Of a stretch of DNA of 64,000 nucleotides, positions 54,001 to 57,482 are shown one piece after another. The stretch comes from Pseudomonadota bacterium (GTDB lineage Bacteria > Bdellovibrionota > Bdellovibrionia > Bdellovibrionales > Bdellovibrionaceae). The stretch is from assembly GCA_041178425.1 (NCBI GenBank), contig JBEGVH010000017.1, positions 1-64,000 on the forward strand, given 5' to 3'. Within the stretch, counting starts at the first letter, position 1; every line of letters begins with the position of its first letter. The position numbers are program-made.

Positions 54001-57000
54001 TTTTTGTTTCTTGATTTGCTAAACTGGCGTAAGGGTGTTACGCCAGTGCTATTGAAGAAACATAATTAATGGAGGAATCTATGCAAAAAAAAGTAAAAAA
54101 CATTTTCGCTGATTGGTCTAAAGCTTTAAAAATTCAACAATTGAAAGCTGACCTCAATGCTTTGGCTGATGATATGGCCAAGGTAAAAAAGTCAATTGTT
54201 CCACAAGCTAAGCAAACAGTAAAAAAAGCAGAAAAAGAATACCAAAAGATTTTGGCTCAATTAACTGTGGCTCAAAAACAATGGAATCTCGAAGTAAAAA
54301 AAGCAGGAGCCTTCCTTAAAAAGACAACAAAAGACGTTGAAAAGACTGTGAAGAGCTATCAAAAAATCGCTGCTCAGCAAAAAGCAGAGATCAAAAAGTC
54401 TGTGAAAGTAACTCCTAAAGCAAAAACTGTTAAACCAACAGTGAAGGTAACAGTTAAGCCAGCGGCAAAAAAAGCTACCGTTGCGACAAAAGCAAAAAAA
54501 GTTGCTAAACCAAAGGCTGCAGCAAAAGTAAAAGTAGCTCCTAAAGCTAAGGGTGCGACTAAGGCTGAACCACAACAGCCGATGATTCCAGGGCTTTAAT
54601 ATTCAAGTTGCCTCTCCCTCCATTCTAATAAATCGGAGGGAGAAGTCTTTTTTTCATCGAAGATATTATTTTGACTAAGCTTCTCTTTCTCTTTGTTCAT
54701 GCTCTGATTCAGCGATTTCTGTGAGAGTGCCCTCTGAAAGTAAAAGAGTGCTGGCCACGGATACCGCATTTTCGAGTGCAGTACGAACAACCTTTGTGGG
54801 ATCAATGATCCCCGCAGCAACCAAATCGATAAATTTCCCGCTGGCTCCATCAAAGCCAAAGTTTCCTTTGTTTTTTTTCATTTCCGCAACAACCACGCCA
54901 TCGTCGGCATTTGAATTTTTGGCAATTTGACGAGCGGGAACCTCAAGAGCCCGACGAAGAAGTCCTATGCCAGTTTTGACGTCGCCTGTAGCTAAGGCTT
55001 CTTCGTGCTCGAGTTCTTGGCTCAGGCGAACAAAGACCAGTCCCCCTCCGGCAACAATTCCCTCTTGAGCGGCGGCCCTTGTTGCACTTATGGAGTCATC
55101 GAGGGCTTCCTTTTTAATTTTTATTTCAGTTTCAGTGGGGGCACCAACGTGAATAACGGCCACACCACCGGCCAATTTTGCGATTCGTTCTCGTAGCTTT
55201 TCTCTTTCATAGGTGCTTGACGTCTGTTCAAGTTCTGTCCGAAGCAATTTGATTCGTTCTTGCAGAGCCATTTTCATGCCTGCCCCTCCGATGATCGTGG
55301 TAAAGTCTTTGGTAGACCTTACTTTTTTAGCTCGGCCAAAATGTTCGAGCGTGAGTGAATCGAGCTTTTCACCTAATTCTTCGGAGATAAATTTTCCGCC
55401 GCACAAAATGGCCATATCTTGCATCTGAGCTTTTCGGTGATCTCCAAAACCAGGGGCCTTAACGGCAAGAGAGAGAAGAACTCCGCGAACCTTATTGACC
55501 ACGAGAGTGGCGAGGGCTTCGCCATCAACATCTTCAGCAATGATGAGAATGCTTCTATTGGCTTTAGTTATTTGCTCGAGGATTGGAACAATATCGTTAA
55601 CATGGCTAATTTTCTTTTCGTAGAGGAGGATGTAGGGGTCGTCGAGGGTAGCTTCCATTTTTTCGGGGTCGGTGATAAAATAAGAAGATAGGTAGCCACG
55701 ATCAAATTTTAGGCCTTCGACGACGTCTACGGTTGTTTCTGTGCCTTGGCTCTCTTCAACAGTCACAGCCCCCTCGTTTCCAACGCGATGGATGGCATCA
55801 GCAACGAGTTTACCAAGGACGGAATCGTTGTGAGCAGAAATAGTAGCAACTTGTGCCATTTCTAAGGGGCCTTTGATAGGTCTGGATAATTCATGGAGTT
55901 TTACGAGGGCTGCGGCAAGACCCTGATTCAAGCCCTTTTTAAGATCAATCGCACTGGCGCCAGCGGCTACATTTCGCAGGCCTTCTGAGAAAATTGAATG
56001 AGCTATAAGAGTCGCGGTGGTTGTTCCATCACCAACGGCATCGCCAGTTTTTTGCGCCACTTCGCGCATCATTTGGGCTCCTAGATTCTCTACGGGGTCT
56101 GCGAGTTCAATTTCTCTGGCGATGGTAACTCCATCATTGCATATGATAGGAACTCCCCATTTTTTACCAATAAGAATGCTTTTCGATTTTGGTCCTAAGG
56201 TTATTTTCATAGCGTCCACGAGAGTGGTGGCTCCCTTAAGAACTTTCGAGAGGGATTCTTCTTTAAATAATATTTGTTTTTTAGTCATGACTTCACCTTT
56301 TTTTCTATGGCAGGTCGGTAGAATCCAAACAGAAGTCTGTCTTGCTGAATTAACGGAAGATTCTACCGACCTGTTTGAGTAAGAGTTCAATCAATTAGCT
56401 GGAGAGTCTACTTTTTGTTTCTTAATTGTTTCGTGTGTTTTGTCTGCAATATTTAAGAGAGTTCCGAAAGTGAGGTGAGAAATGATGGCCCAATAAAAAT
56501 TGTGTAGTTTTTATTTTTCGCTAAGTGTTCTTATTGTTTCTCTAATCAAAAGAAAGGATGTGACTTATGGAGATGCTATCGGGACAAATGACAAGCGATC
56601 AAAAAGTTTTTTTTCGAAACCTGCTGGAGAAGAAAAGAAAAAACCTTCTAGCCACCGAAGAAACTCTGAGACGGCAAGATATTCAGCCAATGAGTTTTGA
56701 AGGGGCAGGAGATATCACCCGAATCAAAACGCATCCTGCCGATCTGGCAACTGACAATCAGGATCTAGCCCTTCAAGGGGCGCTCTCTGATCGCAACCTT
56801 CATTCGCTTCAGGAGATCGAAGAAGCCTTAGACCGAATGGATCGGGGTGGCTACGGCGAGTGCCTGAGTTGCAAAGAAGCGATATCGCCGAAGCGATTAG
56901 AAGTTCTCCCGGAGGCGCGTTTTTGTGTTGAATGTGAACAGGATTTAGAGGAGATGAAGCACAATATCGGACTTGATCGAAGTGCTAAGACGTCGGTGCA

Positions 57001-57482
57001 AACGTTAGAAACAGCAAAAGCGATTGAGTCTCTCGGTCAACTTTTAGTTTCGGATATTATGCGCGATTCACCAATCTCACTTAAACCCAACGAGGGAATT
57101 CACCAGGCGATGACGCTCATGTCTGATTACGGAATCAGGCACTTGCCAGTTGTTGATTCAGAGGGTGATTTACAAGGGGTTGTTTCTGATCGCGACATCC
57201 TTAACGCCGTGGTGCGCCTTCGCCCTTGGAAATTGGTCGAGCGGATGGAAAATCCCTGGCAAGAAGTTCGTGTGAGTGCGGTGATGACAAAAGTTCCCGA
57301 AAGCATAAACCCTGACACAAGTCTGACCGAAGCTGGTCGGATGATGCTTGAAAATAAATTCAGTGCGCTGCCGGTCGTGGATGGAAATCGATTAGTGGGA
57401 ATTATTACCGAAAGCGATTTTGTACGGTTGATTTCGTGATGGTGCTGAAAAATTTGGTGGAGATAATCGGGATCGAACCGAC

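What a model noticed while it worked through the whole genome (the two positions that open the first line are those of the whole stretch)
56567..57439. DksA/TraR-type RNA polymerase factor fused to a CBS-domain pair
Besides its ordinary DksA (g02427) the genome has g01313, a complete DksA/TraR-like coiled coil and C4 zinc finger fused to a CBS pair. This suggests an RNA polymerase secondary-channel factor gated by an adenine nucleotide.
Evidence so far: Domains at 94-128 and 161-289. 20 full-length fused proteins at E<=1e-62, with all four zinc cysteines and an H-x-x-D tip (HPADLA consensus) conserved. Present in 2 of 101 order genomes. Search 167 found no report.
(Added by a program. Inside this text positions count along the whole contig: contig position 1 is position 1 of the stretch shown here. 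"Call 12" and the like, gene names such as g00115 and contig names such as C1 are that model's own, and its searches are not shown. The text may have been shortened before it was handed on; [...] marks where a part breaks off. The agent that wrote the report below was given it as the finding of a first reader that could run no searches.)

Follow-up and report, generated by a model that had tools for sequence, protein, structure and literature searches.

The report
DksA-like factor with adenylate-sensor domain
In some Bdellovibrio-related bacteria, a protein shaped like the RNA-polymerase regulator DksA lacks the usual ppGpp-binding residues and is joined to a module of the kind that binds AMP, ADP or ATP, so it may tie transcription directly to the cell's energy level; this is untested.

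Summary
Window 56567-57439(+) encodes a 290-aa protein: a full DksA-fold domain (TM 0.78 to E. coli DksA) joined by a variable linker to an AcuB-like CBS pair. In 24 fused proteins the DksA tip residue D74, all four zinc cysteines and both CBS nucleotide motifs are invariant; A76 is kept in 20. ppGpp site-2 residues K98, R129 and K139 are absent. The HxxD tip is a subfamily trait, also seen in Chlamydia DksA. A model docks the domain on the genome's own beta-prime rim helices (0.72 against 0.00 for controls), which may be by likeness to solved complexes. The fusion is in 4 of 384 genomes of the order. Trees suggest one fusion, then repeated loss of either half. Several relatives lie in sigma54-box islands with USP, Hsp20 and ribosome-hibernation genes; this window's copy has no such box. 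Best reading: a ppGpp-blind secondary-channel factor of an energy-stress regulon, switched by adenylates (about 0.45). Against: the halves persist alone, the linker is unconserved, and Chlamydia's HxAD DksA does not complement E. coli. No report found in five literature searches. New variant of a known kind.

The parts
56567..57439 (+). Gene for the 290-aa DksA-like/CBS-pair fusion (P0001)
56554..56558 (+). Shine-Dalgarno-like AAGGA, 8 nt before the ATG
   Evidence: read from the sequence
56594..56845 (+). Coiled coil, residues 10-93: helix 1, low-confidence tip loop, helix 2
   Evidence: models; Foldseek to 1TJL, 5VSW, 4IJJ
56732..56749 (+). Tip H56-x-x-D59-x-A61, aligned to E. coli DksA D71-x-x-D74-x-A76
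   Evidence: alignment to 1TJL; H 24 of 24, D 24 of 24, A 20 of 24
56846..56950 (+). C4 zinc finger (C99, C102, C120, C123) and C-terminal helix. R110 (=R125) kept; L114 and E124 stand at the ppGpp-site positions R129 and K139
56951..57037 (+). Linker, residues 129-157: disordered stretch, then helix 143-157. CBS-only relatives keep a similar N-terminal extension
   Evidence: pLDDT < 50 at 134-145; 15.8% mean pairwise identity, 22-39 aa from the last Cys to the CBS start
57038..57433 (+). CBS pair (Bateman module), AcuB-like, with both nucleotide motifs: R191, H192, S207, R209, D210 and T281, D284
   Evidence: each 24 of 24; top Foldseek hits are AcuB with AMP or ADP; AcuB residues
54675..56288 (-). 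Divergent second groEL with no groES beside it. A neighbour; not shown to be part of the system
   Evidence: not seen beside the fusion in G083, G135 or G960
56311..56373 (.). 15-bp perfect inverted repeat (56311-56325 / 56359-56373) between the two genes, just 5' of the groEL ribosome-binding site
   Evidence: (z -3.7); no Rfam match
57455..57530 (-). tRNA-Ala(GGC), convergent, starting 15 nt past the stop codon; possible insertion site

Best explanation
A DksA-fold factor that docks on the beta-prime rim helices and puts its D59/A61 tip into the RNA polymerase secondary channel. It cannot use ppGpp in the DksA way, because site-2 basic residues are replaced by acidic or hydrophobic ones. The C-terminal CBS pair binds adenine nucleotides and, probably through its dimer conformation rather than a fixed intramolecular interface, sets how much of the factor is free to act on RNAP. 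It belongs to a sigma54-driven energy-stress or low-oxygen dormancy gene set. My guess at direction (about 60:40): AMP/ADP-bound is active and damps rRNA and ribosomal-protein transcription; ATP-bound lets go when energy recovers. Shown by sequence or model: fusion, fold, residue conservation, loss of site-2 residues, neighbourhoods. Modelled only: RNAP docking. Inferred: ligand binding (about 0.85), RNAP regulation (about 0.7), coupling of the two and its direction.
For: Fold: TM 0.78 to 1TJL, 0.76 to RNAP-bound DksA in 5VSW. Residues in 24 fusions: D74 24, A76 20, R91 as R/K 23, R125 24, four Cys 24; K98 position basic in 1, R129 position Arg in 0, K139 position basic in 0. L95, K98, R129 and K139 are stated to be needed for ppGpp but not for DksA activity, and TraR fills the same site with hydrophobic residues (10.1101/188680, passages). 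Complex model with own beta-prime: 0.72 in 3 runs, best of 3 controls 0.00; the mark was reached by 116 of 157 solved and 2 of 215 mismatched pairs; contact agreement at least 46%, partner pLDDT at least 73. Contacts are canonical: rim-helix Glu (E677 equivalent) with 114 and 124, Asp (D684 equivalent) with R76. CBS motif residues matching AcuB R33, H34, R51, D52, D122 are invariant; best fold matches are AcuB-AMP/ADP. Both halves are conserved alike (46.9% and 52.9% mean identity) and their distances correlate (rho 0.47, 0 of 2000 permutations). Neighbours in relatives include Usp, Hsp20, HPF/S30AE, Host_attach, PPK2, RtcB, other CBS proteins and sigma54 response regulators. A sigma54-type box lies upstream in 6 of 13 family genes, against 89 of 2615 G000 genes and 33 of 241 genes in those loci. 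Hsp20, CBS, UspA and a dksA homologue occur in predicted FixK/FNR regulons (PMC2908626, passages).
Against: Coupling is unproven. Linker identity is 15.8%, length 22-39 aa, full-length pTM 0.46. DksA-only and CBS-only relatives are nested among the fusions (8 changes on each tree; AU p 0.042 against one fused clade), and G275 has both halves as separate genes on two contigs. Loss of site-2 residues is shared by all 7 HxxD DksA-only relatives examined, so it was not a swap made at fusion. The HQAD-tip Chlamydia DksA does not complement E. coli dksA (PMC9126822). RSP0166, an FnrL-induced homologue, does not act like DksA. The complex pass may be recalled from solved DksA-RNAP structures, and the tip residues were not among the confident contacts. 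The window's own copy and that of G960 have no sigma54 box and no island. The gene is rare, 4 of 384 order genomes. The genome also has a long RelA/SpoT gene.
Confidence: 0.45

Rival explanations
1. Uncoupled passenger fusion. Two co-regulated neighbours in a stress operon fused once. The DksA half acts on RNAP constitutively, TraR-like, and is controlled only by expression. The CBS half does its own job or merely dimerises the protein.
For: Unconserved linker. Both halves persist alone, repeatedly. Stand-alone DksA halves keep the same tip and site-2 pattern, and 4 of 6 have a sigma54-type box.
Against: The fusion is kept intact in 24 proteins at 36-66% identity to P0001 or similar, with both ligand motifs invariant. 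The trees put it as the likely ancestral state of this CBS clade (SH-aLRT 99).
Confidence: 0.25
2. Channel plug or anti-DksA. It binds the rim helices but, with His for the first Asp, does not destabilise open complexes. It blocks the other DksA/ppGpp and Gre factors, or parks RNAP during dormancy, with the CBS pair timing release.
For: Confident model contacts are at the globular domain and helix 2, not the tip. Tip mutants of DksA still bind RNAP. HQAD DksA of Chlamydia fails to complement. Rnk is a precedent for a competing binder. Neighbours include ribosome-hibernation genes.
Against: The tip region is as conserved as the zinc finger (54.2% against 54.8%), with H and D invariant. A passive plug would not need that.
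Confidence: 0.15
3. The target is not RNAP. The zinc finger and coiled coil serve as a redox/zinc sensor or protein-binding arm for another partner (chaperone, protease or enzyme), as AcuB is an adaptor for AcuC.
For: Not all C4 DksA/TraR proteins act like DksA (PMC9239242 section 18). Scores are below all DksA family cut-offs. Neighbours include groEL, Hsp20 and LonC.
Against: Full coiled coil, C-terminal helix and the D74, A76, R91, R125 equivalents are kept. The complex model passes. groEL was not seen beside the other three fused loci.
Confidence: 0.12
4. Assembly or annotation artefact, or a decaying chance read-through.
For: Rare and patchy; most records are metagenomic.
Against: 24 divergent intact fusions, an independent near-identical assembly P0254, and two records named Bdellovibrio sp. 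HM001 and CKG001.
Confidence: 0.02

Closest known systems
E. coli DksA (1TJL, 5VSW, 7KHI) and P. aeruginosa DksA2 (4IJJ)
   Same: [quoted passage not shown]
   Different: His at D71; no L95, K98, R129 or K139; longer tip loop; C-terminal CBS pair; below TIGR02420 and NF033459 cut-offs; patchy and accessory.
TraR and phage TraR homologues
   Same: C4 finger; site 2 not fit for ppGpp; accessory distribution.
   Different: TraR is 73 aa with one helix and an intact DxxDxA. This protein has both helices, HxxD and a ligand domain.
YteA family (TIGR02890; B. subtilis YteA, YocK, YlyA) and Chlamydia DksA (6PTG)
   Same: Best NCBIfam match of the N-half is TIGR02890 (E 5e-22). The HxAD tip aligns with the Chlamydia protein.
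   Different: 78.7 bits against a cut-off of 134.4. No CBS pair in the solved Chlamydia protein. Chlamydia DksA has one Cys. That YlyA binds RNAP during sporulation is recalled; the paper was not held.
AcuB (9S4V-9S52, 9QS7, 2O16, 5AWE)
   Same: Top fold matches of the CBS pair; phosphate- and ribose-binding residues kept; AcuB is a dimer that senses AMP/ADP/ATP/Ap4A (PMC13121692, passages).
   Different: AcuB has a C-terminal ACT domain and controls the deacetylase AcuC. Here the output domain is N-terminal and DksA-like, and Glu/Asp stands at AcuB K120.
CBS-containing DNA-binding regulators (CcpN, SpxR, HhpR)
   Same: A CBS pair joined to a transcription output domain; weak NCBIfam matches through the CBS part.
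   Different: Those act at operator DNA (recalled). This one would act inside RNAP on promoter classes.

Membership tests
DksA/TraR superfamily (PF01258) | C4 zinc-finger domain above the Pfam cut-off | tested here: met
   36.9 bits against 24.9; four Cys in 24 of 24
DksA/TraR superfamily (PF01258) | Coiled coil + globular domain + C-terminal helix fold | tested here: met
Canonical DksA (TIGR02420, NF033459) | Score above the curated cut-off | tested here: not met
   57.3 against 115.5; 62 against 105
Canonical DksA (TIGR02420, NF033459) | Intact DxxDxA tip | tested here: not met
   HxxDxA: first Asp is His in 24 of 24; D74 24 of 24 and A76 20 of 24 kept
Canonical DksA (TIGR02420, NF033459) | ppGpp site-2 residues R91, K94, L95, K98, R129, K139 | tested here: not met
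   R/K at R91 in 23 and at K94 in 21 of 24; Leu at L95 in 0, basic at K98 in 1, Arg at R129 in 0, basic at K139 in 0
Canonical DksA (TIGR02420, NF033459) | Binds the beta-prime rim helices / secondary channel | tested here: inconclusive
   Model passes, 0.72 against 0.00, but like complexes are solved
Canonical DksA (TIGR02420, NF033459) | Shortens open-complex lifetime; complements E. coli dksA | not testable with these tools
   needs the bench
YteA family (TIGR02890) | Score above the curated cut-off | tested here: not met
   78.7 against 134.4
TraR family (TIGR02419) | Short single-helix protein; score above cut-off | tested here: not met
   30 against 59.7; two-helix coiled coil
Adenylate-binding CBS pair (Bateman module) | Two CBS repeats, each with its ribose-binding Asp and Ser/Thr, plus phosphate-binding Arg/His | tested here: met
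   Mapping to AcuB numbers is by matched range and motif spacing, not by a residue-level alignment that I saw.
Adenylate-binding CBS pair (Bateman module) | Nucleotide binding and dimerisation | not tested
   The one complex job went to RNAP; binding needs the bench
AcuB | C-terminal ACT domain; acuABC/acsA context | tested here: not met
   The protein ends with the CBS pair; no such neighbours among those scanned
Sigma54 regulon member (this copy) | -24/-12 box upstream | tested here: not met
   No match for the window's gene, though rpoN is present; met in G083 and G135

The most novel reading that the evidence does not exclude
A secondary-channel transcription factor that carries its own nucleotide sensor: a ppGpp-independent route by which AMP/ADP or Ap4A, read by the CBS pair, switches a DksA-like tip on RNA polymerase on and off. 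It would be the transcription arm of an undescribed sigma54-controlled dormancy regulon (USP, Hsp20, HPF, Host_attach, PPK2) in Bdellovibrionales.
Probability: 0.35. Interest if true: 0.82.

Novelty: new variant of a known kind. Interest (0 to 1): 0.6.

Why it matters
DksA needs ppGpp and TraR needs no ligand. A DksA-fold protein switched by a fused adenylate sensor would be a third way of controlling the RNAP secondary channel, linking energy charge to global transcription. It also opens up the HxxD-tip, site-2-less DksA homologues, whose activity is unclear (the Chlamydia one does not complement E. coli). Natural fused, DksA-only and CBS-only forms give built-in controls. Two named records (BFD62464.1, BFD59085.1) offer a starting point if those strains can be grown. 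It is a rare accessory gene, so the breadth is limited.

Tried and rejected
1) Fusion in Myxococcota. The ESM Atlas top cluster (CBS 100%, zf-dksA_traR 98%, 104 members, 266 aa, commonest phylum Myxococcota among 16 labelled; score 0.92) suggested it. No fusion was found in 351 genomes searched with A1 (only 6 candidates scored per genome), nor in 50 zinc-finger loci inspected out of several hundred matches in 201 genomes. The cluster may be this same family (P0014 is also 266 aa); unresolved. 2) Longer fusions: 248 candidates, none significant (weak evidence). The search for shorter forms had only 8 candidates and gave 2 distant hits. 3) DksA remnants upstream of CBS-only genes in L182, L003 and L185: none, so the matches from residue 93-118 onward were chance extensions. 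4) Phage and plasmid records: CBS-only matches; the one 81%-coverage plasmid hit is a 223-aa CBS protein without the DksA half. 5) groEL as a conserved partner: not seen beside the fusion in G083, G135 or G960. 6) FNR-type boxes: none in 36 upstream regions; a CRP-like palindrome only in G086. 7) Sigma54 boxes near the scattered Hsp20, Host_attach, HPF, PRT, LonC and MBL homologues of G000: none convincing; no USP homologue found with three queries. The 17 regions used to train that matrix were mostly picked after seeing matches, so they are no test. 8) Expression: no RNA holder was listed. 9) Rfam: only the tRNA. One sigma70-like site against 4.5 expected by chance. 10) Base composition shows no clear island. 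11) In 401 phylum genomes the DksA-half profile matched 6, five of them in the own order.
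Full report
**Observation.** Window 56567-57439(+) is one open frame of 290 aa with an AAGGA element 8 nt before the ATG. Pfam finds zf-dskA_traR at 94-128 and two CBS repeats, both above cut-off. Of the best 120 of 2046 hits listed (self included) carry both domains over 94-100% of the query. 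P0121 and P0122 were added from the profile search, giving 24. Two cluster members are named Bdellovibrio sp. HM001 and CKG001, and the closest named CBS-only loci are Bdellovibrionota. Full fusions were found in 3 of 301 class genomes and in 4 of all 384 order genomes held: G000, G960, G083, G135. Upstream lies a divergent second groEL without groES; downstream, a convergent tRNA-Ala.

**N-terminal half.** The model has a two-helix coiled coil with a low-confidence tip, a C4 finger and a C-terminal helix. Its best fold matches are DksA2, RNAP-bound DksA and free DksA (TM 0.71-0.78). The alignment to 1TJL gives an offset of 15: H56=D71, D59=D74, A61=A76, R76=R91, E83=K98, R110=R125, L114=R129, E124=K139. 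Across 24 fusions: H56 24, D59 24, A61 20, R/K76 23, R110 24, four Cys 24. The K98 position is basic in 1 (acidic in 20), the R129 position is never Arg, and the K139 position is never basic. The DksA-RNAP structure preprint states that L95, K98, R129 and K139 matter for ppGpp but not for DksA's own activity, that D74 and A76 substitutions abolish function but not binding, that D71 lies next to the NTP site in the ppGpp complex, and that TraR fills site 2 with hydrophobic residues (10.1101/188680, passages). PMC4010833 (passages) also names D74 and A76 as critical and calls the DxxDxA motif essential. So the protein keeps the working tip residues but looks blind to ppGpp.

The HxxD tip and the site-2 losses are shared by all 7 close DksA-only relatives examined, and the tip by Chlamydia DksA. 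The best NCBIfam match is the YteA family, below cut-off. Chlamydia DksA does not complement E. coli (PMC9126822, passages), and some longer homologues do not act like DksA (PMC9239242, passages and section 18). The genome's other DksA-family gene is not canonical either: DxxE tip, Gln at K98 and K139, below cut-off. A long RelA/SpoT gene and rpoN are present.

**RNAP docking.** Residues 8-135 were folded with a 183-residue piece of the genome's own beta-prime covering the rim helices and bridge helix, plus zinc. Score 0.72 in all three runs, best of three controls 0.00. The mark was reached by 116 of 157 solved complexes and 2 of 215 mismatched pairs, counts that hold only roughly here. Contact agreement was at least 46% and partner pLDDT at least 73. 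The confident contacts are the canonical ones: residues 107-114 and 121-128 on the rim-helix tip, and R76 against the D684-equivalent Asp. The tip residues are not among them. DksA-RNAP complexes are solved, so this shows likeness, not binding.

**C-terminal half.** The best fold matches are AcuB with AMP, ADP or Ap4A. AcuB binds nucleotides through R33, H34, R51, D52, K120 and D122 and is a dimer whose conformation follows nucleotide load (PMC13121692, passages). By matched range and motif spacing these correspond to R191, H192, R209, D210, E282 and D284; I did not see a residue-level alignment to AcuB. All but E282 are invariant in 24 of 24, as are S207 and T281; position 282 is always acidic. 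Both sites look intact. The acidic residue may favour AMP over more highly charged ligands (inference).

**Are the halves coupled?** For: both are conserved alike (46.9% and 52.9% mean identity), and their pairwise distances correlate (rho 0.47, 0 of 2000 permutations), which shows joint inheritance rather than coupling. Against: the linker is 15.8% identical and 22-39 aa long, and the full model has pTM 0.46. On the DksA tree (39 rows) the fused label needs 8 changes, with most branches weak. After 8 distant rows were dropped, one fused clade was marginally rejected (AU p 0.042). On the CBS tree (123 rows, quick method) 23 fused and 20 CBS-only rows form one branch with SH-aLRT 99, the CBS-only forms scattered inside it; a few of those come from short contigs and may be truncated. 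G275 has both halves as separate genes. The simplest reading is one fusion followed by repeated loss of either half. Any control is therefore more likely to work through the CBS dimer state or steric access than through a fixed interface.

**Context.** Of 90 neighbouring proteins scanned from 14 of the loci of relatives, G083, G135, G275, G086 and G075 showed Usp, Hsp20, HPF/S30AE, Host_attach, PPK2, CHAD, RtcB/archease, LonC, phosphoribosyltransferase, further CBS proteins and sigma54 response regulators with Hpt. Others (G151, G010, G028, G133, G198) showed no such genes among those scanned. Hsp20, a CBS protein, UspA and a dksA homologue appear in predicted FixK/FNR low-oxygen regulons of alphaproteobacteria (PMC2908626, passages). 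A loose sigma54 -24/-12 pattern (recalled consensus) lay at -130 to -20 in 6 of 13 family genes, against 89 of 2615 G000 genes and 33 of 241 genes in the relatives' loci (p 2e-6 and 0.005, overstated because kin are not independent). With a slightly wider window and the genes checked later, the tally is 2 of 4 fused, 4 of 6 DksA-only and 4 of 7 CBS-only, three of the last being near-identical sites. The window's gene and G960 have no box and no island; G000's homologues of island genes are scattered, without clear boxes. The regulon reading describes the family's origin and may not hold for this copy.

**Mechanism.** Shown: fusion, fold, conserved tip and ligand motifs, lost ppGpp residues, contexts. 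Modelled: RNAP docking. Inferred: the gene is expressed under energy stress; the DksA half acts on RNAP without ppGpp; AMP/ADP against ATP in the CBS pair decides whether it stays engaged. A ppGpp-independent inhibitor would need an off-switch on recovery, so I favour 'low energy = on', about 60:40. Overall 0.45. Rivals: uncoupled passenger 0.25, channel plug or anti-DksA 0.15, non-RNAP partner 0.12, artefact 0.02.

**Novelty.** It works like DksA/TraR if the model is right, but fails membership of canonical DksA, TraR, YteA and AcuB as those families are defined. It is a member of the PF01258 superfamily and a CBS-pair protein. Five searches bearing on the fusion listed no paper that describes it, judged from titles and abstract starts, with passages read in two of the listed papers besides the DksA ones; one search found nothing on the two named strains. 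The library lacks most subscription papers, and no supplements were read, so a mention in a domain-architecture table could be missed. The architecture is visible to automatic annotation (JGI name of P0017; ESM Atlas cluster of 104 members). Other papers: PMC3113569 (passages: single knock-outs of yteA, yocK or ylyA did not affect rrn P1 promoters); 10.1101/2023.05.15.540843 (passages); PMC13039410 (listing only). YlyA binding RNAP is recalled, not read. Verdict: real, new variant of a known kind, interest 0.6.

Noticed in passing
window 54675-56288 (-): Second groEL, 537 aa, 51% identical to the copy on C31, with no groES beside it and no Gly-Gly-Met tail.
   Followed up: partly
window 56311-56373: 15-bp perfect inverted repeat; folds as a hairpin (z -3.7) directly 5' of the groEL ribosome-binding site. 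No Rfam match; only two scattered 2-mismatch arm copies elsewhere in the genome. Could control groEL translation.
   Followed up: partly
L302:1183-1788 (G000 C10): A second GroES domain behind a long Lys/Ala-rich, histone-H1-like N-terminus (201 aa); possible partner of the lone groEL.
   Followed up: no
L001:1231-1626 (G000 C31): The genome's other DksA-family gene has a DxxE tip and Gln at K98 and K139, lies just upstream of a lon-like gene, and is below the DksA cut-off. No canonical DksA was found in this genome.
   Followed up: partly
window 59491-63406 (-): YcaO-like protein, iron-containing redox (haem-oxygenase-like) protein and two unknown ORFs in a row: looks like a peptide-modification (RiPP) cluster.
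   Followed up: no
window 54069-54599 (+): 176-aa coiled-coil protein with a Lys/Ala-rich tail, phasin- or histone-like, no confident Pfam match.
   Followed up: no
L188:1118-3919 (G275) and L179, L180, L182: Run of USP, HPF, Host_attach, Hsp20 and DksA-like genes with repeated sigma54-type boxes, beside a sigma54 response regulator and Hpt gene: a candidate dormancy regulon of Bdellovibrionales.
   Followed up: partly
L003:2341-7612, L004, L181: The CBS-only form follows a CBS, unknown, DeoC-like aldolase and two aldehyde dehydrogenase genes, with its own sigma54-type box.
   Followed up: no
L248-L277 (Myxococcota sample): A recurrent DksA-like subfamily with a very acidic tip (several Asp/Glu in a row) and a basic C-terminal tail.
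   Followed up: no
ESM Atlas rows: Other DksA-fold fusions exist as clusters: with BON (63% of members) and with LGT (21%).
   Followed up: no
window 49563-53381 (+): 1272-aa probably secreted protein with a CARDB domain and a possible haem-binding CxxCH motif.
   Followed up: no
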